Source of the DNA: Thermoplasmata archaeon
Lineage (GTDB): Archaea; Thermoplasmatota; Thermoplasmata; UBA10834
Direction of reading: 5' to 3'
NCBI GenBank assembly: GCA_050178275.1
Contig: JBFXGF010000001.1
Location: 1 to 24,211 of the forward strand
Length of the DNA: 24,211 bases
Positions 13,222-22,241 of this stretch are shown piece after piece; positions within the stretch are counted from its first letter, which is position 1; each line of letters begins with the position of its first letter. The notes under the pieces are model-generated. The model saw only the letters and a list, made by a program, of their open reading frames with translations. It was not told the DNA's origin and did not search any database. Both the position numbers and the translations under genes were made by a program.

Positions 13222-15959
13222 CATGGCGGCCAAACCCCCCTCTCCCGGTTCAATCAGGGTGGTGCTGGCATATCGGCCTAGAACTCTGGTCGCCCACCGG
13301 TGGTGTAATCCTTCCTGACCCGAAGTCCCCGCATGGCCGCTGTCGAATCAGTCTTTCCCTTTCCGCCAGCGGTAGACTCCGAGGACGGTTCCTGCGGCCA
13401 CGATTGTCCCCGCCACCAGGATCAGGACCCAAAGCGCGATGCCCGAGGACTCACGATAGTTGAAATCGACCGTGGTCGATGCTTCGTTTCCAGCAGCATC
13501 GGTCGCCCGGACCTCGAAGGTGTGGGCGCCATCCGTCAGGCCTGTGCCCTCCCATTGCTGCGCGGATCCCACATCCGTCCACGCGCCAGAATCGAGTCTC
13601 ACTTCGAATCTGGCGATTCCTGAGACGGTGTCTGAGGCGGCCCATTCGAAAATGACATCTTCGTCGACGGAAGACCCGTTCGGAGGGGAGTTGATTGAGA
13701 GGCTCGGGGCAGTCACATCTATCTTGACCGTTGCCGACCTGATTGGCTCGACGTTGCCCGCCAGGTCCGTCGATCGAAATGACAGGATGTTGGCGCCCTC
13801 GTTCGAAAGGCGGAAATCAGACTTGTATGTCGTCCAGGTGCTGTTGTCGAGACTATACTCGGTCCTCGATACTCTGGAATTGTCGGAGGCAGAGAGTGAC
13901 ACATCGACGCCCGAGACATACCAGTAGTCCTGCCCGACGGTGCCATTGAGCTCGGCCCTCGTCGTTGGAGGGATGGAATCAGACATCCGGAAGACCGCGT
14001 CGGAACAGTCCTCTCCGGTGTTGAACCCATCAGAGGCCATCACCCTGATTCTGCACTTCTCCGTCGGGGCGACCCCGGTCGTGTTCCAGATGTACGAGGA
14101 TGCCGTGAGGTTGTTCGCGACAGGTATCCATGTGCGCCCGTCGTCCGGGGTGTACGAGACGAGATATGACAGGTCGTCCCCGTCGAGGTCATCGGCCGTC
14201 CAGGATATCTCAGGGCTCTGGCCGATGTCGATGTCCTCCGCGCCGTTCGGGGATAGGATGTCCACGGTGGGGACCGATGTCGTGACGATGCGCTCCGCGA
14301 GCACCGCCTCCAGAGGATCGAGTATCTGGACATACCGCGTGTCAGGCAGGTTCGGGGCGTTCACCACGAAGTCGACACTATCGATTTCTTCAAGGAGGTA
14401 CGATTCGTTCTCTCCGTCATCGTGTGTCAACCGAGTGAAGGATACGTTGAAGTATGTGTTGCCGAGGATGTTCCTCGACGAATCCAGCATCCTCACCAAA
14501 TAGCTGCCGACCGGTCCCTGCTGAGGGATGATCTGCTCTTCAGGCACACCCAGGGGAGTAGTGAACCAAGGGCGGGTGATGATGGCCGCCCCGCTCCTCA
14601 GTATTGAGCCGTCGATGACCACGATGGGGCCGAGGGTCGGAGGAGCGTAGACCAACTGGCTGAACAGGTTCCATTCCCAAGTCCCGTTAGGACCGCTGGA
14701 GAGTATCGTGCTCAGGTCGATGTACGACCGCTCGTGGTCCTGGTACCTCTCGTTGTCAATCCAACGAGGAGTCACTGGGACACCCGACGGTAGCCGTCCC
14801 GGGTTGCTCATCCATGTGTTGGCGCTCACACCGTACGCTCTCTCGGAAACGGACCACTTCGTCGCATCGTACACGCTAATGCCAATGTCGTGTGGGTGCC
14901 ACAGGTAGTATGTATGGCCAAGTTCGTGAGCTAGGAGTGCCTCTCTCACGTCTATCCCATTCGCTGTTATGAATAGGGGAACGGGGTCTCGAGGCTCATC
15001 CAAGCAGCCGACCGCTGACCCATATGTCTCGCGTCCCCACGTGTCTCTGATCTTCTCAAATACAGCGACGACGCGATCATAGCCCAAGACCCTCGCCTCA
15101 GCTGACAGCCTCTTTGTGATGATGGCGCAGTCGGTCCACAACCTTGAATCGTAGCGTTCGTCTCTTGGAGGCGCCTCGACAATCTCCACGCCATCGTCAG
15201 CCAACGGGAAAGTGTCCAGGACTTCCCGTAGCTCCTCGTCGAGTGAGAACTCTGGGGGTTCACGGTCCCACAACGCACTAGAGGAACAGTAGATCGGGAC
15301 CACAAGGATGCGCAGGTCGTGCGAAACCCACGCGTCGATGGGCGAATCCGTGGTCATCTGATTGTTCGTCTCGTCAGTCTCGACCACCGAGTTATCGGGG
15401 TCGACCCAGGCAATCACGCTGGAGTCAAGGCCTGGCTCTGTCCACATGAATGTCGCGGGCTCCGAAGTCCAAGGCAGGGGGTGGGATGTGCAGTTTCCAC
15501 CAGGCACATACACCGTGTTGACGCCCGGGGCCAGGGGGATCCCGCGCCTATCCGGCCCGGTCTCGACATACGATGAGGATCCGTGGTTATAGGTCACGCT
15601 GATGTTCGCGTATACCTCCTCGTCGAACGCGTTGATGACCGTCACGCAGAGTGCCGCGGACTTGTTCACCACCACGCCCCTCGGTTCCGGGACGACCTGG
15701 ACGACGACCACGGAGGTGACGTAGAGATCCTCGGTGGAGGCGGCGTTTACGGGTGATAGCGCGGTGGGGATTAGAAGGGCAATCACAATCGCAGGGACGA
15801 CGAACCTCGAACCGAGCCTCATGCATATCCTGCCCATGATTGGCCTGTAGCCCTATAACCCATACGGGGAGGGGGCGAGTGGGTATGCGGCGGTCGAATC
15901 CGTGCTCCAAGTGGCCTTCGACTCAAAGCGAGGGACACCCAGCTAGCTACGCATGAGAG
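13222..15959. mobile_element. Putative decayed tRNA-integrated genomic islet with a single cargo gene and no integrase
   Basis: Bounded by the tRNA-Gly 3' end and its degenerate copy. Spot counts of 60-nt lines give about 57-62% GC versus about 68% in a flanking gene line, with more A/T-ending codons. Confidence 0.45.
13348..15837 (-). CDS. Secreted, C-terminally membrane-anchored multidomain protein: CARDB-like domain, metzincin-like Zn metallopeptidase, and three or more Ig/FN3-like repeats
   Basis: Signal peptide (RFVVPAIVIALLIPTALSPVNA), CARDB motif VDPDNSVVETDETNN, HELGHTYYLWH followed by WMS, Ig-type repeats (IRVMASDG, FRSTDLAGN, VRATDAAGN), TM helix plus RWRKGKD tail. The start may be ATG 15822 given the TATA-like GGTTATAG at 15860-15853. 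Confidence 0.85.
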   Translation of the reverse strand: MGRICMRLGSRFVVPAIVIALLIPTALSPVNAASTEDLYVTSVVVVQVVPEPRGVVVNKSAALCVTVINAFDEEVYANISVTYNHGSSSYVETGPDRRGIPLAPGVNTVYVPGGNCTSHPLPWTSEPATFMWTEPGLDSSVIAWVDPDNSVVETDETNNQMTTDSPIDAWVSHDLRILVVPIYCSSSALWDREPPEFSLDEELREVLDTFPLADDGVEIVEAPPRDERYDSRLWTDCAIITKRLSAEARVLGYDRVVAVFEKIRDTWGRETYGSAVGCLDEPRDPVPLFITANGIDVREALLAHELGHTYYLWHPHDIGISVYDATKWSVSERAYGVSANTWMSNPGRLPSGVPVTPRWIDNERYQDHERSYIDLSTILSSGPNGTWEWNLFSQLVYAPPTLGPIVVIDGSILRSGAAIITRPWFTTPLGVPEEQIIPQQGPVGSYLVRMLDSSRNILGNTYFNVSFTRLTHDDGENESYLLEEIDSVDFVVNAPNLPDTRYVQILDPLEAVLAERIVTTSVPTVDILSPNGAEDIDIGQSPEISWTADDLDGDDLSYLVSYTPDDGRTWIPVANNLTASSYIWNTTGVAPTEKCRIRVMASDGFNTGEDCSDAVFRMSDSIPPTTRAELNGTVGQDYWYVSGVDVSLSASDNSRVSRTEYSLDNSTWTTYKSDFRLSNEGANILSFRSTDLAGNVEPIRSATVKIDVTAPSLSINSPPNGSSVDEDVIFEWAASDTVSGIARFEVRLDSGAWTDVGSAQQWEGTGLTDGAHTFEVRATDAAGNEASTTVDFNYRESSGIALWVLILVAGTIVAAGTVLGVYRWRKGKD

Positions 15960-16031
15960 TGCGGCTGCCGGGATTCGAACCCGGGCTTGAAGCTTGGGAA
16001 GCTTCAGTCCTAACCACTAGACTACAGCCGC
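15960..16031 (-). tRNA. tRNA-Gly (anticodon CCC), intronless, CCA not encoded
   Basis: Folds as GCGGCTG TA GTCT AGTGGTTA GGAC T GAAGC TTCCCAA GCTTC AAGC CCGGG TTCGAAT CCCGG CAGCCGC A. Confidence 0.97.
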
Positions 16032-16038
16032 TCTGAGC

Positions 16039-16293
16039 TCACTTGACCGTTTCGAGCTGGCTGATTATGTTCCAGATGAGCGTCCGCCCGTGCAGCGGTA
16101 TGTTCGGGTCGTTGGCCAGCTCGTCGAGTATCATGATCGCACTGGCGCTCCTGATGTCGAGCGCCTCCTGCTTCTGGGAGAGGCGCTCCTTGGCCTGGGT
16201 CGCGCCGCGCCTGATGTTCCTCGGAACGGAGTTGTCGTCCGCCAGCTGGTCCAGAACCTCCATTATCTGCCTTAGCCTTGTTTCCATGTCCAT
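16039..16293 (-). CDS. UPF0147 family protein
   Basis: DNSVPRNIRR and LDELANDPNIPLHGRTLIWNIISQLE. Start placed at ATG 16293, 7 nt after the GAGGTG SD (the ORF track start 16314 is probably too long). Confidence 0.93.
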   Translation of the reverse strand: MDMETRLRQIMEVLDQLADDNSVPRNIRRGATQAKERLSQKQEALDIRSASAIMILDELANDPNIPLHGRTLIWNIISQLETVK

Positions 16294-16341
16294 CAGAGAC
16301 CACCTCGCCGACACATCGTTCGAATCATGACCGGGAGAGGC

Positions 16342-16683
16342 TCACTCCTTGGTCTCCTCTTCCGGCTCCCTGATCTTCCCGCGCTCCTTGAATGTCGTCA
16401 CGACCATGAAGGTCTTCGTCTCCTTCACGCCCTCGATGCTCGCGACGTCGTCGACTATGAACTTCTTCAGGGACGCGTAGTTCGGGAACCTGGTCTTGGC
16501 GATGATGTCCGTGTCGCCGGTGACGAGGAACACATCCTCCACGTAATCGAACCCCGCGATCTTCTGCGCCACCACGTCCGAGCCTTTCGTGTCTATCTTG
16601 AAGCTCACCAACGCGGCGACCTGGTCCTCGCCGTAGTACGATGATATGATCTCCTCGTACTCCTTCTTGTCCTTCTCTTCCAT
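16342..16683 (-). CDS. Lrp/AsnC ligand-binding (RAM) domain protein without HTH (demi-FFRP)
   Basis: VFLVTGDTDII motif, IEGVKETKTFMV, ACT-like beta-alpha-beta pattern. No N-terminal HTH in 113 aa. Confidence 0.88.
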   Translation of the reverse strand: MEEKDKKEYEEIISSYYGEDQVAALVSFKIDTKGSDVVAQKIAGFDYVEDVFLVTGDTDIIAKTRFPNYASLKKFIVDDVASIEGVKETKTFMVVTTFKERGKIREPEEETKE

Positions 16684-16795
16684 TCAAGCGCCCCCTATCG
16701 GTCCACCTCGGCCTGTGGTGCCCGCGCCCGGCGCTCCGGGGTCGAACTCGGCTCTGGCGAACCGGCTACTCCCTACAGTGCCCTTGCGTAGAATG

Positions 16796-16966
16796 TCACA
16801 GGCGCGCGCCCTCGAACTCCTCTTGGAGGTCTATGATGACCTGCTCCAATATCTCTTCCAAGGAGGCGCTCCTGTACTCTCTCATGCCGCCCAGGTCGCT
16901 CTGCACTCTGGCCACGTACGCGGCGTTGCTCTTCAGAAACTCAACGTTGCACAAGGGCTCTTCCAT
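16796..16966 (-). CDS. Small conserved-looking protein (56 aa), possible HicB/UPF0150-like fold; not in the ORF track
   Basis: Manual translation MEEPLCNVEFLKSNAAYVARVQSDLGGMREYRSASLEEILEQVIIDLQEEFEGARL*. SD GGGGTGA about 7 nt upstream of the ATG; BRE/TATA at 17057-17040. Confidence 0.75.
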   Translation of the reverse strand: MEEPLCNVEFLKSNAAYVARVQSDLGGMREYRSASLEEILEQVIIDLQEEFEGARL

Positions 16967-17039
16967 CCGTGTTCACCCCATCTGGCCCTGGGCACCACCC
17001 GAGGCCATGGATTGCACGCTGGCGCGCTATACGTGCACT

Positions 17040-17057
17040 ATTATTTAGTACTTTCTT
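17040..17057 (-). promoter_or_regulatory. BRE plus TATA promoter for the minus-strand small-ORF/Lrp/UPF0147/tRNA cluster
   Basis: Minus strand AAGAAAG-TAC-TAAATAAT, AT-rich in a GC-rich context. Confidence 0.55.
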
Positions 17058-17178
17058 ATGCGACTTCGAGCCCCAGGGGCAGGCCAGCTACCTAGGTCCA
17101 TGGTATGACAAAACTAGTCACGGGATTGCCCCGTCCCACTGGGTCGATGCCCAATAGCGTCCATCGCGTCCGACTAGG

Positions 17179-17188
17179 TTTTATATAT
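17179..17188. promoter_or_regulatory. TATA box TTTTATATAT (readable on both strands) in the divergent intergenic region upstream of the IleRS-like gene
   Basis: Strong TATA consensus about 120 nt upstream of ATG 17311. Confidence 0.55.
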
Positions 17189-17310
17189 CGTCCCCGCCGT
17201 TCCAAACAATCCGATGAACTCGGCTGGCCAGCTCCTGATTATCATTATAGGCTGATTCATGCCACCATTGCCGAGTTTGTGATAGAACCCTTTTGGAGGA
17301 GTCTGTTGCG

Positions 17311-20300
17311 ATGAGGAGGTACTACCGAGAACCCGCCGGGGAGACCCCGCCTCGGATCGAGGCGGAGGTCTTGGCGCTCTGGGGAGAGGAGGGCATCCTC
17401 TCCAAGGTCAAGGAGCGTATGCGGGGCGGGGCCCCCCTCGTCTTCTGCGAGGGCCCCCCGACGGCGAACCGCCCGCCACACATGGGCGACGCCCTCACGC
17501 GCGCGGTCAAGGACGCGTTCCTCAGGTATCATATCATGAACGGCCGGATGATCGTCCCCTACATCGCCGGCTGGGACTGCCACGGGCTGCCGGTCGAGCT
17601 CGAGGCCGAGAGGAGCCTCGGGATCGACAGCAAGGCTGAGATAGAGTCCTACGGCGTGGACAGGTTCAACGCGTTGTGCCGCGAGCGGGTCGTGCGCTAC
17701 AAGGCCGATTGGGAGGAGATGAGCCGTCGTGTGGGCTACGGGATCGACTACGAGGACGCCTACCTGACGATGTCGAACGAGTACGTCGAGAGCGTCTGGT
17801 GGTCCCTGAAGCAGTTGCACTCGAAGGGGTTGCTGTCAAGGTCATCACAAGTCGTGCCTTACTGCCCGAGGTGCGGCACATCCCTCAGCACGCACGAGGT
17901 CGCCCTAGGTTTCAAGGAGTCCGAGGTCAGATGGACCCTGGTCAGGTTCAGGATCCCCTCCATCGACGCGTCCGCCCTCGTATACACGGAGTCCCCGTGG
18001 ACGTTGGCCGCGAACGCGCTGTTGGCTGTCGACCCGTCGAAGCGGTACTCGGTGTTCGAGTCGTCGGGCGAGAAGTTCCTGGTGGCCGATGAGAAGGCCG
18101 AGCTCTTGGGTCCGGCCAGGAAACCCCTGAGGACGATGCCTGGTTCGGAGCTCGTGGGCCTGTCCTACGAGCCGCCGCTCAAGTATCACGAATTCAACGG
18201 TCACGCCTTCAGGATCGTCTCGTCCACGGAGGTCACCAAGGAGGAAGGCACGGGTATCATGCACGTGTCCCCGCCGTACGCGTCCGCGGACCACGGCATA
18301 GGTGTGGTCGAGGGCGTCGGCCTGTTCGACCCGGTGGATGACACTGGCAGGTTCACGGACGCCGTTCCGGACCTCGCGGGCAAGTTCGTGCACGACGCCT
18401 CGTCGGACGTGGTGCGGATGCTGGAGGCGAACGGCCTGCTCTTCAAGTGGGGCCTGACGAAGCGCTCGAGCCCATTCTGCTGGCGGTGCCGCACGCCCCT
18501 GTTGTACAGGCTCACGGACGCGTGGTCCGTGCACGTGTCGGCCGCGAAGGCGCGCATGTCCCAGCTCAACTCAGGCGTCAGGTGGGTCCCGGAGGACTAC
18601 AGGGACGGCAGATTCGGCGACTTCCTCGAGGACGCGAAGGACTGGTCGGTCAGCAGGAGCAGGTACTGGGGAACGCCGCTGCCAGTCTGGCGGTGCGGTT
18701 CCGGGCACGAGGTCTGCGTCGGCAGTCTCGAGGAGATGTCGAGGATGTCTACCGCCCCCCTCCCGGCGTCGCTCGACCTCCACAGGCCACATATCGACGC
18801 CGTCAGGCTGCGCTGCCCTGAGTGCGGGGGCGAAATGACCAGGGAGCCCTACGTCCTGGATTGCTGGTACGACTCCGGTTGCGCCCCGTTCGCCCAATAT
18901 CACTATCCTTTCGAGAACATGGCGGAGTTCGAGACCCACAGGTCCGTGGACTTCATCACGGAGTCGGCGGACCAGACCAGGGGCTGGTTCTACACGCAGC
19001 ACGTGGTCAGCACCCTCCTGTTCGACGCCCCCGCGTTCAAGTCCGTGCTCGTGCTAGGGGACCTCCTTGACGAGAAGGGCCAGGTCATTAGGTCTTCGGC
19101 CGGGAACACGGTCCCGCCGGGCGAGGTGTTCTCGTCGGTGGGCGCTGACGCGGCGAGGTTGTACTTGCTGGGCTCCGAGGTGTGGCAGCCCGTCAGGTTC
19201 TCCATGGACGACGTGAGGAAGGCCATGTTCGGCACGTTCACCACCGTCCTGAACCTTTACGCCTTCTACTCGTCGAACGCGAACGCATACGGCTACACCG
19301 GCCAGAAGGCCAAAGGGCGGACCCACGACCTCGACCGGTGGATCATATCGAGGCTCAACTCCACGGTGAGGGATGTCAGGGCGGGTTTCGACGCGCTCGA
19401 GGTCCAGTCCGCCGTGCACGCGGTCATCCGGTTCATCGACGACCTCAGCGGCTGGTACGTGCGCAGGTCCAGGAGGCGGTTCTGGGTCGAGAGCGACCCG
19501 GAGGACAGGTTCTCCGCCCACGCGACGCTCAACGAGTGCCTCACGACCCTGTCGCTGCTGATGGCCCCGGCCGCGCCGTTCTTCTCGGACTGGTTATACA
19601 GGTGCCTCAAGGGTCCGAAAGAGTCCGTGCACCTCGAGGATTTCCCAGCCGCCGACGAGTCCCAGATAGACCCGTCCCTCGAGTCGCAGATGGCGCTGGT
19701 CAGGCAGGCCGTCGAGGCCGGGAGGACCGCGAGGCAGGGAGCCAACATCAAGCTCAGGCAGCCGCTCGACAAGGCGGTCATCGCGGCCGGCAGGGACGGC
19801 GTCTGGGTCCTCCGGAGGTATGAGAAGATGCTCTCCGAGGAGCTCAATGTCAAGCAGGTCGAGTGCATCGAGTCGAGGGAGAGCATGATGGAGTTCACCG
19901 TCTCCCCGAACCTCAGGACGATCGGGCCGAAGTACAAGGAGACCGCGGCGGAGGTGTCGCGCATGCTGGGTCAGGTAGACGGGAACGAGCTCGTGAGACA
20001 CCTCAGGTCGGTCGGACGGGTGAGGCTCGGCGGGTTCGACCTGTACGAGGAGGACGTGGTCGTGTCCGAGCGGCAGAAGGGCGGATATGCCCACGCGAGC
20101 GCCGGCGATGTCCATGTTTACATGTCGCTCGCGGTCGATAAGAAGCTCAGGATCGAGGGTCTCGCGAGAGAGGTCATCAGACGCATCCAGCATATGCGCA
20201 AGGAGCAGGGGCTGCAGTTCGAGGACGAGATAGAGGTCGGTTACGACGCGCACCCGGACATCGAGGCGGCCATCGCGTCGTACAGGCCTCACATAGCCAA

Positions 20301-20409
20301 CGAGACGCATGCCCGCTCGGTGGAGAAGGCGCCCAGCGAGGAGGGCGCCAAGAGCTGGACCGTGGACAAGATGCCGCTCGAGCTGACGGTCAGGAAGGCC
20401 GGACGCTGA
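17311..20409 (+). CDS. ileS: Isoleucyl-tRNA synthetase-like protein (type 2/archaeal IleRS architecture) with degenerate HIGH and KMSKS motifs; possibly a catalytically inactive paralogue
   Basis: EGPPTAN, GWDCHGLPVE, YCPRCGTSLS, DWSVSRSRYWGTPLPVW, VLDCWYDSG, DQTRGWFY, LSGWYVRRSRRRFW, KLRQPL, EGLAREVIRRIQHMRK. HIGH reads HMGD (17479-17490) and KMSKS reads VIRSS (19084-19098). ATG 17311 follows GGAGGA. The family call is secure; synthetase activity is doubtful. Confidence 0.9.
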   Translation: MRRYYREPAGETPPRIEAEVLALWGEEGILSKVKERMRGGAPLVFCEGPPTANRPPHMGDALTRAVKDAFLRYHIMNGRMIVPYIAGWDCHGLPVELEAERSLGIDSKAEIESYGVDRFNALCRERVVRYKADWEEMSRRVGYGIDYEDAYLTMSNEYVESVWWSLKQLHSKGLLSRSSQVVPYCPRCGTSLSTHEVALGFKESEVRWTLVRFRIPSIDASALVYTESPWTLAANALLAVDPSKRYSVFESSGEKFLVADEKAELLGPARKPLRTMPGSELVGLSYEPPLKYHEFNGHAFRIVSSTEVTKEEGTGIMHVSPPYASADHGIGVVEGVGLFDPVDDTGRFTDAVPDLAGKFVHDASSDVVRMLEANGLLFKWGLTKRSSPFCWRCRTPLLYRLTDAWSVHVSAAKARMSQLNSGVRWVPEDYRDGRFGDFLEDAKDWSVSRSRYWGTPLPVWRCGSGHEVCVGSLEEMSRMSTAPLPASLDLHRPHIDAVRLRCPECGGEMTREPYVLDCWYDSGCAPFAQYHYPFENMAEFETHRSVDFITESADQTRGWFYTQHVVSTLLFDAPAFKSVLVLGDLLDEKGQVIRSSAGNTVPPGEVFSSVGADAARLYLLGSEVWQPVRFSMDDVRKAMFGTFTTVLNLYAFYSSNANAYGYTGQKAKGRTHDLDRWIISRLNSTVRDVRAGFDALEVQSAVHAVIRFIDDLSGWYVRRSRRRFWVESDPEDRFSAHATLNECLTTLSLLMAPAAPFFSDWLYRCLKGPKESVHLEDFPAADESQIDPSLESQMALVRQAVEAGRTARQGANIKLRQPLDKAVIAAGRDGVWVLRRYEKMLSEELNVKQVECIESRESMMEFTVSPNLRTIGPKYKETAAEVSRMLGQVDGNELVRHLRSVGRVRLGGFDLYEEDVVVSERQKGGYAHASAGDVHVYMSLAVDKKLRIEGLAREVIRRIQHMRKEQGLQFEDEIEVGYDAHPDIEAAIASYRPHIANETHARSVEKAPSEEGAKSWTVDKMPLELTVRKAGR

Positions 20410-20881
20410 CCTTGCGCCTCTTCGACGGCAGGACCTTCTCCATCACATACGCGTGCCTGCCGGCGCCGTAGTAGTCCCTCATGACCACCCTCAGGGTGTA
20501 GCCCTGCTTGAGGTACAGCGCTATAGCGGGCTCGTTGCTGACATCCACCTCGAGCCCGAAGGTCCTCGCGCCCATGCCCTCCAAGGACTTCTCAGCCTCG
20601 CGCAGCATCGACGTGCCCACGCCCTCTCTCCTCCGGCCCTCGAGGACCGCCATCGACGCTATCCTTCCTTCGGCTCTGCTCTTCGAGCAGAGGCACAGGA
20701 CCGCCCCTATCACGCGCCCACCGTCGTCGGCGACCAGGGCGAACGCGTCGTCCCTCAGCAGGAAGGCCTTCATGGTGTCCTCTGAGAACTTCTCGGCCCC
20801 GAAGCATTCCTGCTCGAGCCGCATCAGGCCCTCGAGGTCATCCATGGCGCCTTCCCTGACATCCACGGCACGTGGTACCAT
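20390..20881 (-). CDS. GNAT family N-acetyltransferase (RimI-like)
   Basis: LEQECF, RIASMAVLEGRRREGVG (motif A), LEVDVSNEPAIALYLKQGY. The ORF track extension to 21349 is antisense to asnS and was trimmed. Start is ATG 20881 or GTG 20866. Confidence 0.9.
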   Translation of the reverse strand: MVPRAVDVREGAMDDLEGLMRLEQECFGAEKFSEDTMKAFLLRDDAFALVADDGGRVIGAVLCLCSKSRAEGRIASMAVLEGRRREGVGTSMLREAEKSLEGMGARTFGLEVDVSNEPAIALYLKQGYTLRVVMRDYYGAGRHAYVMEKVLPSKRRKVSVRPS

Positions 20882-20920
20882 CCAGCCACGATAAGTCCAT
20901 TGCGGCCCGCGTCCGAAGGG

Positions 20921-20951: not shown

Positions 20952-22241
20952 ATGGTCGTGATAAAGGACGCCCTCTCGAAGGACATGGTCGGAAAGCCCG
21001 TCCAGTTGAGGGGCTGGATATACCGGACCCGGAGCAGCGGGGGCATCGTGTTCGCCGTGCTCAGGGACTCGACTGGCATAGTCCAGGTCACTGTGAAGAA
21101 GGGCTCGGTGCCCGAACCGGACTTCATCGCCGCCACGAACTCAGGCATCGAGTCATCCGTCATCATAGATGGCACGGTCGCGGAGGACGCCCGCGCCCCC
21201 GGGGGGTACGAGGTGCGCGCGACCAAGTTCACGGTCGTCGGCCCCACGGAACCGTTCCCCATCACGGAGTACCAGAGCACCGAGCTCCTGCTCGACCTGC
21301 GGCACCTGTGGATACGGTCCAGGGAGCAGACCGCGGCGATGCGGATCAAGGACGCCCTGCTGCGGGGGGCGAGGCAGTGGTTCCACGAGAACGACTACGT
21401 CGAGGTGACCCCACCCATCATCACGGGCGTCGCCGCCGAGGACAGCACCCAGCTCTTCCAGATCAAGTACTTCGACAGGATCGCATACCTGTCCCAGAGC
21501 GCCCAGTTCTACCTCGAGTCGCTCATCTACTCCTGCGACAAGGTGTTCTCCCTCACGCCCTCGTTCAGGGCCGAGAAGTCGAGGACGCCCAGGCACCTGG
21601 CCGAGTTCTGGCACCTCGAGATGGAGGCCGCCTGGGTCGACAACCTCGGTAACATGAAGGTCCAGGAGGAGCTCGTGACCGCGATGCTGCACAAGGCCGC
21701 GGCCGACTGTCGGGCCGAGCTCGAGCTGTTCAAGCGGGACCCGGAGACGCTGAGGAGCATCGCGCCGCCGTTCGACAGGGTCCAATACGGCGAGGCCATC
21801 GACCGGCTCCAGGCGAAGGGGTTGGATGTCAGCTGGGGAGCCGACTTCGGAGCAGTCGAGGAGCGCGAGCTGACCAAGGACAGCGGGATGCCGATGTTCG
21901 TGGTCAACTACCCGAAGGAGCTCAAGCCGTTCTACATGAAGGAGAACCCGGACGACCCCAGGACGTACAAGAACACCGACCTCCTGGCGCCAGAGGGCTT
22001 CGGCGAGATTATCGGCGGGAGCGAGAGGGAGACGGACAACGCCCTCATAATCGAGCGGATCAAGGAGAAGGGCGAGGACCTGGACAAGTACTCGTGGTAT
22101 CTCGACCTGAGGAGGTACGGCTCGGTGCCTCACTCCGGGTTCGGCCTGGGCGTCGAGAGGTTCGTGACATGGGTCTGCAAGATGGACCACATAAGGGACG
22201 CGATACCGTACCCGAGGACCGTGTCCCGCGTGTTCCCCTAG
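20952..22241 (+). CDS. asnS: Asparagine--tRNA ligase (class IIb)
   Basis: OB-fold LRGWIYRTRSSGGIVFAVLRDSTG, LRHLWIRS, LSQSAQFYLE, motif 2 FRAEKSRTPRHLAEFW, EIIGGSERE, motif 3 HSGFGLGVER. Confidence 0.95.
   Translation: MVVIKDALSKDMVGKPVQLRGWIYRTRSSGGIVFAVLRDSTGIVQVTVKKGSVPEPDFIAATNSGIESSVIIDGTVAEDARAPGGYEVRATKFTVVGPTEPFPITEYQSTELLLDLRHLWIRSREQTAAMRIKDALLRGARQWFHENDYVEVTPPIITGVAAEDSTQLFQIKYFDRIAYLSQSAQFYLESLIYSCDKVFSLTPSFRAEKSRTPRHLAEFWHLEMEAAWVDNLGNMKVQEELVTAMLHKAAADCRAELELFKRDPETLRSIAPPFDRVQYGEAIDRLQAKGLDVSWGADFGAVEERELTKDSGMPMFVVNYPKELKPFYMKENPDDPRTYKNTDLLAPEGFGEIIGGSERETDNALIIERIKEKGEDLDKYSWYLDLRRYGSVPHSGFGLGVERFVTWVCKMDHIRDAIPYPRTVSRVFP

What the first reader, a model, noticed from the sequence alone, without database searches (positions are those of the whole stretch)
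17983..18291. Editing-site His/Asp survive in the ATP-dead IleRS: possible full-length trans-editing deacylase
Seen: the CP1 Thr-rich motif reads YTESPWT (canonical WTTTPWT), and the second motif reads GTGIMHVSPPYASAD (canonical GTGxVHxAPxxGxDD). Established: in E. coli IleRS the His and the Asp nine residues later (H333, D342), with T243/T246, form the post-transfer editing site. Here H318, D327, Ser at the T243 position and Thr at the T246 position are present. Inference: the protein may hydrolyse mischarged Val- or norvaline-tRNA-Ile in trans, or deacylate cognate Ile-tRNA given the altered pocket. Known trans-editors (AlaX, YbaK/ProX, ThrRS-ed) derive from class II systems.
Basis: partly seen in the sequence, partly recalled or inferred. 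Interest (0 to 1): 0.6.

Follow-up and report, generated by a model that had tools for sequence, protein, structure and literature searches.

The report
ATP-dead IleRS copy, editing pocket half-kept
An uncultured Thermoplasmata archaeon keeps, beside its working isoleucine-tRNA-charging enzyme, a full-length second copy that has lost the ATP-handling residues but keeps the isoleucine pocket, the tRNA-binding domains and the substrate-anchoring half of the proofreading pocket, so it may be a tRNA-binding factor and possibly a free-standing proofreader, which would be new for this enzyme class.

Summary
YTESPWT and GTGIMHVSPPYASAD lie at 17983-18003 and 18247-18291 of a 1032-aa IleRS2-type ORF (17311-20409). 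HIGH reads HMGD and KMSKS reads VIRSS. The same genome holds an archaeal-type IleRS with intact motifs.

The ORF belongs to a monophyletic family of about 112 sequence clusters from uncultured Thermoplasmata. The family is under purifying selection (dN/dS 0.12-0.22).

- His is kept in only 18/112 and Thr246 in 49/112. In E. coli IleRS these two are published negative determinants that exclude cognate Ile. They are not catalytic residues.
- In the window's own subclade the altered pocket (Y-T-E-S/T-P-W-T, His, Asp) is nearly invariant.

Evidence against editing as the family's core function:
- CP1 is the least constrained domain.
- About 10% of members have a wrecked Thr loop.
- Independently degenerate IleRS copies in other families also keep this Asp.
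- The working IleRS keeps its own editing site.

The isoleucine pocket is 112/112 conserved. A conserved Ile-codon mini-ORF precedes the gene.

Best reading: a non-charging tRNA-Ile-binding factor. Trans-deacylation is possible (about 0.2). This scan has found the family before on other DNA. I found no paper that describes it.

The parts
17311..20409 (+). Full-length IleRS2-lineage paralogue (1032 aa from the ATG; the stop codon is included)
   Evidence: TIGR00392 scores 740.7 bits against a cut-off of 621.4. Pfam finds tRNA-synt_1, Anticodon_1 and DUF5915. The AF2 model has pLDDT 88.8 and TM 0.92 to P. megaterium IleRS2 8c8v. dN/dS is 0.12-0.22.
17479..17490 (+). Degenerate HIGH motif, reading H-M-G-D
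   Evidence: The fourth position is His in 63/63 intact IleRS2 and Asp here. The preceding ANG Gly (63/63) is Arg here.
17983..18003 (+). CP1 Thr-rich editing motif, reading YTESPWT (canonical WTTTPWT)
   Evidence: In the window's subclade Y, T, E/D, S/T, P, W and T are kept in 16-17 of 17 sequences.
18247..18291 (+). Second editing motif, GTGIMHVSPPYASAD. His is at 18262-18264 (EcH333) and Asp at 18289-18291 (EcD342)
   Evidence: Asp is kept in 110/112 family members and His in 18/112. The position before the Asp is kept in 7/112.
18970..18987 (+). DQTRGW, part of the isoleucine pocket of the synthetic site
   Evidence: Q, R, G and W are kept in 112/112 paralogues and D in 106/112. D95, H97, W525, D527 and E557 are also 112/112.
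19084..19098 (+). Remnant of the KMSKS loop, reading V-I-R-S-S
   Evidence: Both Lys are 63/63 in intact IleRS2. In the family the fourth position is K 15, R 44 and other residues 53 of 112, with at least 23 changes on the tree.
17214..17255 (+). Upstream mini-ORF MNSAGQLLIIIIG* with four consecutive Ile codons (ATT ATC ATT ATA), 55 nt before the gene
   Evidence: The mini-ORF sits at the same distance before the gene in all 19 related loci checked. Ile codons are swapped synonymously between relatives, and at least one ATA is always present.
17180..17188 (+). TATA-like box (TTTATATAT) about 25 nt before the mini-ORF ATG
   Evidence: The box is conserved in the alignment of 16 leaders. Its promoter function is inferred.
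17217..17277 (+). Leader hairpin: AACTCGGC (17217-17224) pairs with GCCGAGTT (17270-17277) and encloses the Ile codons and the stop codon
   Evidence: RNAalifold predicts 10 pairs, two of them with compensatory changes. The MFE fold of the window shows the same hairpin, plus a second one holding the GGAGG at 17296-17300 (z = -1.5, not significant).
20390..20899 (-). Convergent RimI-like GNAT acetyltransferase whose 3' end overlaps the paralogue by 20 nt
   Evidence: Pfam Acetyltransf_1. TIGR01575 rimI scores 70.9 bits, below its cut-off. The same arrangement occurs in 4 distant loci.
16342..16683 (-). Lrp/AsnC ligand-binding domain protein without an HTH, in the divergent upstream cluster
   Evidence: PF01037 at 6.7e-15. 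The gene is conserved upstream.
16799..16969 (-). 56-aa ORF, first gene of the divergent cluster
   Evidence: tblastn gives 93% identity to the 56-aa gene product of L007, whose IleRS paralogue is only 62% identical.

Best explanation
The ORF is a selected, full-length descendant of the Thermoplasmata IleRS2-type synthetase that no longer activates isoleucine with ATP. This genome's charging is done by a separate archaeal-type IleRS (IleRS-A).

The parts kept across the whole family are the isoleucine pocket of the synthetic site, the zinc knuckles, the anticodon-binding domain and the C-terminal tRNA domain. The most likely core activity is therefore binding of tRNA-Ile, probably together with isoleucine or the isoleucyl-A76 end, without charging. 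Expression is tied to Ile-tRNA-Ile supply through a conserved leader mini-ORF with 3-4 Ile codons.

The CP1 editing pocket is half kept. The residues that anchor and position any aminoacyl-A76 (Asp, Thr241, Ser/Thr243, Asn250) stay. The residues that exclude cognate Ile (His333, Thr246) drift in most members. In the window's own subclade the pocket is frozen in an altered form (Y-T-E-S/T-P-W-T, His, Asp), so that subclade may well bind an aminoacyl end there and could hydrolyse it. Hydrolysis is not the function that holds the whole family together.

Shown: motif states, conservation, selection, fold, phylogeny, the second IleRS, and the leader ORF. Inferred: loss of aminoacylation, tRNA binding, Ile binding, and regulation by the leader.
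For: Motifs and the dead ATP site.

A second, intact IleRS-A lies in the same genome (partial, at a contig end). Thirteen of 15 genomes of the same GTDB family have both types, and the motifs of three relatives' IleRS-A are intact.

The family is monophyletic (support 100) on a long stem (0.61) and groups with intact Thermoplasmata and Heimdallarchaeota IleRS2-type enzymes.

Purifying selection acts on all domains (dN/dS 0.12-0.22). dN is about 1.5-2 times that of IleRS-A in the same genome pairs.

Ile-pocket residues are 112/112. Canonical-invariant sites are kept at 0.92 in the N-terminal Rossmann half, 0.89 in the C-terminal half, 0.86 in the anticodon domain and 0.92 in the C-terminal domain, against 0.725 in CP1.

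The fold is a complete IleRS2.

The leader mini-ORF is conserved in 20/20 loci with synonymous Ile-codon swaps. Its hairpin has 2 compensatory pairs.

Precedents are LeuRS-I of Sulfolobaceae and LeuRS2 of Halobacteria, archaeal class Ia duplicates that bind tRNA but charge poorly or not at all (PMC9437257).
Against: - No biochemical datum exists for any member.
- Forty-eight of 112 members still have HxGH plus basic residues at both Lys positions of the KMSKS loop. Some relatives may therefore retain weak activation, and 'dead' is safest for the window's subclade.
- A pure binder needs no conserved Asp/Asn/Thr in CP1, yet these are conserved.
- No output domain or partner is identified.
- The direction of leader control (induction or repression on Ile-tRNA shortage) is not determined.
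- The own-genome IleRS-A is seen only to residue 420, because the contig ends there.
Confidence: 0.52

Rival explanations
1. Trans-editing deacylase. The protein binds aminoacylated tRNA-Ile through its anticodon and C-terminal domains, places the 3' end in CP1 and hydrolyses it. With His and Thr246 present, as in the window's subclade, it would clear Val-, Nva- and other non-cognate aa-tRNA-Ile. In most other members the two negative determinants are gone, so those would also discharge cognate Ile-tRNA-Ile.
For: Asp is kept in 110/112 while its neighbour is free. T241 is T/S in 103, position 243 is S/T in 98, N250 is kept in 109, and TG and P are conserved. The pocket is nearly invariant in the 17-member subclade.

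In E. coli IleRS, H333A, H333G and T246A/H333A leave Val-tRNA-Ile editing within 2-fold. They raise Ile-tRNA-Ile hydrolysis 20- to 260-fold and act in trans, and D342 is the positive anchor of the alpha-amino group. The commonest family states are natural A/S (29) and A/G (9) combinations with Asp.

An Ile-codon leader would fit a factor needed when the Val:Ile ratio rises.
Against: - CP1 is the least constrained domain.
- The T242 position is Glu here and variable in the family.
- About 10% of members have VTEPWR or EPSPWR loops, and two lack the Asp.
- The same Asp survives in 11/14 independently degenerate IleRS-A copies, including ones with wrecked pockets.
- IleRS-A in the same genomes keeps WTTTPWT, His and Asp, so no editing gap is evident.
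- A cognate deacylase impaired growth in E. coli.
Confidence: 0.22
2. Ile-tRNA-Ile-dependent isoleucyl transferase. The conserved Ile pocket receives the isoleucyl-A76 end of tRNA charged by IleRS-A and passes Ile to another acceptor. SbzA, an IleRS homologue, does this in altemicidin/SB-203207 biosynthesis, and cyclodipeptide synthases (class I-like folds without ATP motifs) do the same with their substrates.
For: The Ile pocket and tRNA domains are strictly kept while the ATP residues are lost. The SbzA and CDPS precedents come from the review PMC9437257.
Against: The neighbours are housekeeping genes (AsnRS, a RimI-like GNAT, peptidases, GCV_T, Cdc6). There is no biosynthetic cluster and no candidate acceptor. 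I did not compare the protein with an SbzA sequence, because none was on hand.
Confidence: 0.08
3. Still a working, slow IleRS with unorthodox motifs, for instance a stress or antibiotic-resistant isozyme.
For: Archaeal IleRS-A works with H-I-G-T and xMSKS, so the signatures tolerate some change. Many family members keep HxGH and K/R at both loop positions. The leader resembles those of real synthetase genes, and Ile-run mini-ORFs precede three intact IleRS2-type genes.
Against: In the window's protein both Lys, the fourth His, the LGH His and the ANG Gly are all replaced. The catalytic Lys position changes state at least 23 times on the family tree, which shows no constraint on it.
Confidence: 0.05
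4. A decaying gene with no function, or a passive sponge for IleRS inhibitors.
For: The paralogue evolves faster than IleRS-A. The catalytic motifs are lost.
Against: The ORF is intact in more than 110 clusters, dN/dS is 0.12-0.22 in every domain, and the pocket residues are 112/112. Nothing supports a sponge role.
Confidence: 0.04

Closest known systems
IleRS2 (type-2 / HUP-2 isoleucyl-tRNA synthetase; P. megaterium IleRS2, PDB 8c8v; clade scheme of PMC13752280)
   Same: Homologous over the full length (phmmer E 2e-232, 37% identity, TM 0.92). It has the same domain order, including the type-2 C-terminal tRNA domain. It sits inside the IleRS2 lineage on the tree.
   Different: HIGH reads HMGD, KMSKS reads VIRSS, the ANG Gly is lost, and the editing motifs are altered. 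It coexists with an intact IleRS-A that presumably does the charging.
LeuRS-I of Sulfolobaceae and LeuRS2 of Halobacteria (archaeal class Ia duplicates with little or no aminoacylation; PMC9437257)
   Same: A second full-length class Ia synthetase copy in an archaeon, conserved by selection, keeping its tRNA-binding parts but apparently not charging tRNA.
   Different: It derives from a different synthetase. LeuRS-I still makes the adenylate and has a disrupted CP1. Here the ATP site is the degenerate part, and CP1 is folded with a partly conserved pocket.
Free-standing trans-editing factors (AlaX, YbaK/ProXp, ThrRS-ed, DTD)
   Same: If active, it would hydrolyse mischarged tRNA in trans using a synthetase-derived editing fold.
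   Different: The known factors are small single domains related to class II editing modules. This protein is a whole class I synthetase body, its cognate synthetase keeps its own editing site, and no activity has been shown.
E. coli IleRS T246A/H333A and H333G 'misediting' mutants (bioRxiv 10.1101/2021.10.18.464777)
   Same: Most family members naturally carry Ala at the T246 position and Ser, Gly, Asn or Gln at the H333 position, with the Asp kept. This is the mutant pattern that hydrolyses cognate Ile-tRNA-Ile in trans.
   Different: The window's own protein keeps both His and Thr. The mutants are still active synthetases. The T242 position also differs (Glu or Ala).
SbzA (IleRS homologue that transfers Ile from Ile-tRNA-Ile to a metabolite; PMC9437257)
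   Same: An IleRS paralogue whose job is not charging tRNA-Ile for translation.
   Different: SbzA sits in a biosynthetic cluster of Streptomyces. There is no such cluster here, and the sequence relation was not tested.
Leader-peptide control of amino-acid and synthetase operons in bacteria (for example the ilv and pheST leaders; from my own knowledge)
   Same: A short upstream ORF with a run of cognate codons, followed by conserved RNA pairing ahead of the regulated gene.
   Different: The host is archaeal and the transcript is probably leaderless. No terminator was identified, the mechanism and its direction are unknown, and the regulated gene is a non-charging paralogue.

Membership tests
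Isoleucine--tRNA ligase (functional IleRS, TIGR00392) | Sequence matches the family model above its curated cut-off | tested here: met
   740.7 bits against a cut-off of 621.4.
Isoleucine--tRNA ligase (functional IleRS, TIGR00392) | HIGH signature with the ATP-binding His residues | tested here: not met
   It reads H-M-G-D. The fourth position is His in 63/63 intact IleRS2. IleRS-A enzymes work with H-I-G-T, so this feature alone is not decisive.
Isoleucine--tRNA ligase (functional IleRS, TIGR00392) | KMSKS loop with both lysines | tested here: not met
   It reads V-I-R-S-S. Both Lys are 63/63 in intact IleRS2.
Isoleucine--tRNA ligase (functional IleRS, TIGR00392) | Isoleucine-binding pocket residues | tested here: met
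   D95, H97, W525, D527, E557, Q561, R563, G564 and W565 are present and 112/112 in the family. Their assignment to the pocket rests on my knowledge of T. thermophilus IleRS.
Isoleucine--tRNA ligase (functional IleRS, TIGR00392) | Aminoacylation of tRNA-Ile | not testable with these tools
   This needs ATP-PPi exchange and charging assays.
[quoted passage not shown] | Phylogenetic position and full-length fold | tested here: met
   The protein groups with intact Thermoplasmata and Heimdallarchaeota IleRS2-type enzymes, apart from IleRS-A. TM is 0.92 to 8c8v, and DUF5915 is present.
Trans-editing aa-tRNA deacylases | Editing-domain fold present and aminoacylation function absent | tested here: met
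   CP1 is modelled with block pLDDT 84-96. The ATP motifs are lost. Absence of charging is inferred.
Trans-editing aa-tRNA deacylases | Catalytic and substrate-anchoring residues conserved across the family | tested here: inconclusive
   Asp is 110/112, N250 is 109, T241 is T/S in 103 and position 243 is S/T in 98. The T242 position is variable, and about 10% of members have a destroyed Thr loop. The same Asp also survives in other dead IleRS lineages.
Trans-editing aa-tRNA deacylases | Fills an editing gap of the cognate synthetase | tested here: not met
   IleRS-A of this genome and of three relatives has WTTTPWT, His and Asp intact.
Trans-editing aa-tRNA deacylases | Hydrolysis of mischarged tRNA in trans | not testable with these tools
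   This needs deacylation assays with the wild type and D327A.
Non-charging archaeal class Ia duplicates (LeuRS-I / LeuRS2 kind) | A second, selected, full-length copy beside an intact synthetase of the same specificity | tested here: met
Non-charging archaeal class Ia duplicates (LeuRS-I / LeuRS2 kind) | tRNA binding retained without productive aminoacylation | not testable with these tools
   Only sequence-level retention of the anticodon and C-terminal domains is shown (0.86 and 0.92 of invariant sites kept).
Leader-peptide (cognate-codon) regulation | A conserved short upstream ORF with a run of cognate codons, kept at the codon level rather than the nucleotide level | tested here: met
   Found in 20/20 loci, with 3-4 Ile codons, synonymous swaps between relatives, and a fixed spacing of 49-56 nt.
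Leader-peptide (cognate-codon) regulation | Alternative RNA structures that couple ribosome stalling to expression | tested here: inconclusive
   One hairpin has 2 compensatory pairs. A second predicted hairpin holds the SD, but the fold z-score is -1.5. No alternative pairing was identified.

The most novel reading that the evidence does not exclude
The family is the first natural class I trans-acting aminoacyl-tRNA deacylase, built from a whole synthetase body. In the window's subclade, where His and Thr246 are kept, it would clear non-cognate aa-tRNA-Ile. In most other members the two negative determinants are naturally removed, so those would discharge cognate Ile-tRNA-Ile. That would make an Ile-codon-gauged switch on the charged tRNA-Ile pool in archaea, which lack a RelA-type stringent response.
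Probability: 0.2. Interest if true: 0.85.

Novelty: new variant of a known kind. Interest (0 to 1): 0.6.

Why it matters
Non-charging synthetase copies are known, but few are understood, and I know of none from the IleRS line that has been described in archaea. This family gives a sharp, cheap test. The published E. coli work defines which editing residues drive hydrolysis (Asp342) and which only exclude the cognate amino acid (His333, Thr246). Nature has kept the first and removed the second in most members, while freezing an altered pocket in this subclade.

If deacylation is found, it would be the first natural class I trans-editor, or a regulated discharger of tRNA-Ile. If it is not found, the strictly conserved isoleucine pocket and tRNA domains, together with the Ile-codon leader, point to an amino-acid/tRNA sensing device in archaea.

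Other Thermoplasmata families show the reciprocal decay: the IleRS-A copy degenerates while the IleRS2 copy stays intact. Retaining a 'dead' IleRS is therefore a recurrent, selected outcome in this class.

Tried and rejected
- Literature. Six full-text searches and four papers read turned up no description of this paralogue family or of an archaeal Ile-codon leader. The 2026 IleRS phylogeny paper (PMC13752280) does not mention Thermoplasmata or paralogues.
- Rfam. An E-value scan of 15800-17500 found only the tRNA-Gly.
- Synteny as a functional clue. The neighbourhood is conserved in 4 distant family loci but not around intact IleRS2-type genes of other families. I treat it as family-level inheritance, not as proof of linkage.
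- Pocket geometry.
- Leader mechanism. I looked for an anti-anti-SD pairing by eye and with single-sequence folding and found nothing convincing. The direction of control is left open.
- dS is saturated for the deeper pairs, so only pairs within the subclade are used for dN/dS.
- Not run: complex prediction, because no binding claim is made; and the tRNA-Ile gene inventory of relatives, which was too costly with the tools on hand.
- Pseudogene reading: rejected on selection and ORF integrity.
- Recent transfer from bacteria: rejected, because the nearest intact relatives are Thermoplasmata and Heimdallarchaeota enzymes.
Full report
**What is there.**
The window encodes one open frame, 17293-20409 on the + strand. 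Relatives share the ATG at 17311 and a GGAGG 10 nt before it, so the product has 1032 residues.

The protein is a full-length isoleucyl-tRNA synthetase homologue:
- TIGR00392 scores 740.7 bits, above the 621.4 cut-off. Pfam finds tRNA-synt_1, Anticodon_1 and DUF5915.
- The best solved relatives are Priestia megaterium IleRS2 and T. thermophilus IleRS.
- An AlphaFold model built on 71 sequences has mean pLDDT 88.8 and superposes on 8c8v with TM 0.92 over the whole length.

**The observation.**
YTESPWT occupies nt 17983-18003 and GTGIMHVSPPYASAD occupies 18247-18291. The His codon is 18262-18264 and the Asp codon is 18289-18291.

In 63 intact IleRS2-type enzymes gathered here, W-T-T-T-P-W-T, the His and the second Asp are all 63/63. 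Aligned to them, the window's protein has T, E, S and T at the E. coli T241, T242, T243 and T246 positions. It has His at H333, Ala at D341 and Asp at D342.

HIGH reads HMGD and KMSKS reads VIRSS. The invariant Gly of ANG is Arg.

**A second, intact IleRS.**
The window's assembly is a 1.36-Mb MAG, 70% complete. It holds a second IleRS on contig 125, cut by the contig end after 420 residues. This copy is of the deep archaeal type, called IleRS-A in PMC13752280. It has H-I-G-T, WTTTPWT and GIVHIAPGHGPEDF.

In a sample of the class, 13 of 15 genomes of the window's GTDB family have both genes. That tally of 121 genomes includes one unpublished genome, G084, but no specific claim rests on it. The full-length IleRS-A of three relatives have intact HIGH-type, MSKS and editing motifs.

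**The family.**
A search of the large protein collection gave about 114 clusters at 58-88% identity. All that carry a name come from uncultured Thermoplasmata or 'Methanomassiliicoccus' MAGs. There is then a gap to 46% identity, where intact enzymes begin.

On a FastTree tree the paralogues form one clade (support 100) on a long stem (0.61). The clade groups with intact IleRS2-type enzymes of other Thermoplasmata families and a Heimdallarchaeote, apart from bacterial IleRS2 and from IleRS-A. It is therefore an old resident of the class and not a recent import.

The gene is under purifying selection:
- dN/dS is 0.12-0.22 for the whole gene within the subclade.
- By domain it is 0.08-0.20 for the Rossmann and anticodon domains and 0.17-0.26 for CP1.
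- dN is 1.5-2 times that of IleRS-A between the same genome pairs.

**What is and is not conserved.**
I took the sites that are at least 95% invariant in the 63 intact enzymes and asked what fraction of the 112 paralogues keep the residue.

| Domain | Fraction kept |
|---|---|
| N-terminal Rossmann half | 0.92 |
| C-terminal Rossmann half | 0.89 |
| Anticodon domain | 0.86 |
| C-terminal domain | 0.92 |
| CP1 | 0.725 |

Nine of the 22 strongly lost sites lie in CP1. Eight of those nine sit in the two editing motifs.

The isoleucine-pocket residues (D95, H97, W525, D527, E557, Q561, R563, G564, W565 in the TTG numbering) are 112/112.

The ATP residues are not constrained:
- The ANG Gly is kept in 1/112.
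- The fourth KMSKS position is K 15, R 44 and other residues 53, with at least 23 changes on the tree.
- The two HIGH His are kept in 95 and 78 of 112.

Forty-eight members still have HxGH plus basic residues at both loop positions. 'Dead' is therefore safest for the window's subclade, where every ATP signature is gone.

**The editing pocket in detail.**

| E. coli position | State in the 112 paralogues |
|---|---|
| Asp342 | D 110 |
| Asp341 | D 7 |
| Asn250 | N 109 |
| Thr241 | T 96, S 7 |
| Thr243 | T 53, S 45 |
| Thr242 | A 46, S 19, E 18, V 13, T 9 |
| Thr246 | T 49, A 45, R 7 |
| His333 | S 48, H 18, Q 17, G 15, N 10 |

Pro and Trp of the motif, and the TG before the His, are all at least 96% conserved.

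The His is not a family feature.

The published kinetics of E. coli IleRS bear directly on this (bioRxiv 10.1101/2021.10.18.464777):
- D342 anchors the alpha-amino group and promotes hydrolysis of any substrate.
- H333, helped by T246, only excludes cognate Ile.
- H333A raises hydrolysis of Ile-tRNA-Ile 20-fold. H333G raises it a further 4-fold. T246A/H333A raises it 260-fold.
- The mutants act in trans, and editing of Val-tRNA-Ile changes only 2-fold.

The commonest natural states in the family are Ala/Ser/Asp (29) and Ala/Gly/Asp (9). That is the mutant pattern.

The window's subclade is different. In its 17 sequences Y, T, E/D, S/T, P, W, T, N, M-H and D are invariant or nearly so, while the position before the Asp varies freely. 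This subclade combines the most degenerate ATP site with the best conserved, though altered, editing pocket.

**Why I do not make editing the best explanation.**
1. CP1 is the fastest-evolving domain and lost the most canonical-invariant sites.
2. About a tenth of the family has a Thr loop rewritten to VTEPWR or EPSPWR, with Arg at the T246 position. Two of these members also lack the Asp. The gene is nevertheless kept, so the shared function cannot depend on the pocket.
3. Other Thermoplasmata families show the reciprocal arrangement: an intact IleRS2-type enzyme and a degenerate IleRS-A copy. In 14 such copies from five families the same Asp is kept in 11. That includes the family whose loop reads WFSEPWR and whose His is Pro, Gly or Ala. 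The Asp may therefore have a structural role.
4. The working IleRS-A keeps its own complete editing site, so no gap needs filling.

**Regulatory context.**
Two earlier notes of this scan, on other genomes, mentioned an 'isoleucine-codon gauge gene'. I tested this lead here.

At 17214-17255 lies ATG AAC TCG GCT GGC CAG CTC CTG ATT ATC ATT ATA GGC TGA, which encodes MNSAGQLLIIIIG. It sits 55 nt before the gene and about 25 nt after a TATA-like TTTATATAT.

The same mini-ORF stands 49-56 nt before the gene in all 19 related loci examined:
- It begins M-[NSYT]-S-A, most often MNSA, and ends in a run of Ile codons followed by Ser or Gly and the stop.
- It has 3-4 Ile codons in 18 of the 19 loci and two in one locus (L015).
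- At least one ATA is always present.
- Ile codons are exchanged synonymously between relatives.

A hairpin pairs codons 2-4 with a conserved GCCGAGTT after the stop codon. It has two compensatory changes. A second predicted hairpin holds the Shine-Dalgarno sequence, but the single-sequence fold is not significant (z = -1.5). No Rfam family matches.

Ile-run mini-ORFs also precede three IleRS2-lineage genes of other families, two with fully canonical motifs and one a divergent form with a GVHH motif. None precedes an IleRS-A gene. The leader is therefore probably inherited from the time when the gene was a real synthetase, and it has been kept. This ties expression to the supply of charged tRNA-Ile. 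The direction of the response is not known.

**Neighbours.**
Four distant family loci share the same order:
- a divergent cluster of a 56-aa ORF, an HTH-less Lrp/AsnC ligand-domain protein and a UPF0147/'stationary phase-response' protein;
- the paralogue;
- a convergent RimI-like GNAT whose 3' end overlaps it by about 20 nt;
- AsnRS;
- M20 and M42 peptidases, GCV_T, DUF835 and Cdc6.

Intact IleRS2-type genes of other families lie in unrelated contexts.

**Verdict.**
The most likely reading (0.52) is a non-charging IleRS2-derived protein. It still binds tRNA-Ile and isoleucine or the isoleucyl end, and it is made under Ile-codon leader control. Its closest functional analogues are the archaeal LeuRS-I and LeuRS2 duplicates (PMC9437257).

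The rivals are:
It is more plausible for this subclade than for the family.
- An SbzA-like isoleucyl transferase, at 0.08.
- A residual synthetase, at 0.05.
- A functionless relic or inhibitor sponge, at 0.04.

I found no publication that describes the family. This scan has met it several times on other DNA.

Noticed in passing
window 17214-17255 (+), with 17180-17188 and 17217-17277: A conserved 13-codon mini-ORF (MNSAGQLLIIIIG*) has four consecutive Ile codons. It follows a TATA-like box and is enclosed by a hairpin with two compensatory pairs. It is present before the paralogue in all 20 loci examined. It looks like an archaeal leader-peptide gauge of Ile-tRNA-Ile.
   Followed up: partly
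L098, L102, L104, L106, L112-L121 (other Thermoplasmata families): Reciprocal decay. In families f7, f8, f22 and f26 (and probably f14, whose intact copy was seen in another genome of that family) the IleRS2-type gene is intact. The archaeal-type IleRS-A copy (about 1130-1190 aa open frame) has lost HIGH and KMSKS and, in four of these five families, the editing His. The editing Asp is kept in 11 of 14. In f20 both copies look intact.
   Followed up: partly
window 16799-16969 (-): The 56-aa ORF (MEEPLCNVEFLKSNAAYVARVQSDLGGMREYRSASLEEILEQVIIDLQEEFEGARL) has no Pfam family. It is 93% identical to its counterpart in a genome whose IleRS paralogue is only 62% identical, so it is far better conserved than its neighbours.
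   Followed up: no
window 16039-16314 (-) and 16342-16683 (-): A UPF0147 protein that matches NCBIfam 'stationary phase-response protein' (NF053638, 107 bits) lies next to an Lrp/AsnC ligand-binding domain protein without a DNA-binding HTH. The pair is conserved upstream of the paralogue in the family.
   Followed up: no
window 20390-20899 (-) and 20952-22241 (+): A RimI-like GNAT acetyltransferase converges on the paralogue with a 20-nt 3' overlap, an arrangement conserved in relatives. It is followed by an asparagine--tRNA ligase (NF003037, 478 bits). NCBIfam also holds a model for IleRS fused to a GNAT domain (NF040702), so an IleRS-GNAT link exists elsewhere.
   Followed up: no
L090, L092, L094 (IleRS-A of family relatives): The working IleRS-A of this family is 1165-1178 aa, about 120 aa longer than usual archaeal IleRS. 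Earlier scan notes describe HhH and DUF835/KaiC-like tails on such enzymes. I did not examine the tail.
   Followed up: no
L096 (G117, family f19): A third kind of IleRS-like gene (982 aa) has PMGVHH in place of HIGH, AMHRSKGN in place of KMSKS and an intact WTTTPWT. It is preceded by a mini-ORF MSSCTIIIIIGR with five Ile codons.
   Followed up: no
window 13348-15837 (-) and 15959-16031 (-): An 829-aa surface protein with CARDB and Ig-like domains lies next to tRNA-Gly(CCC).
   Followed up: no
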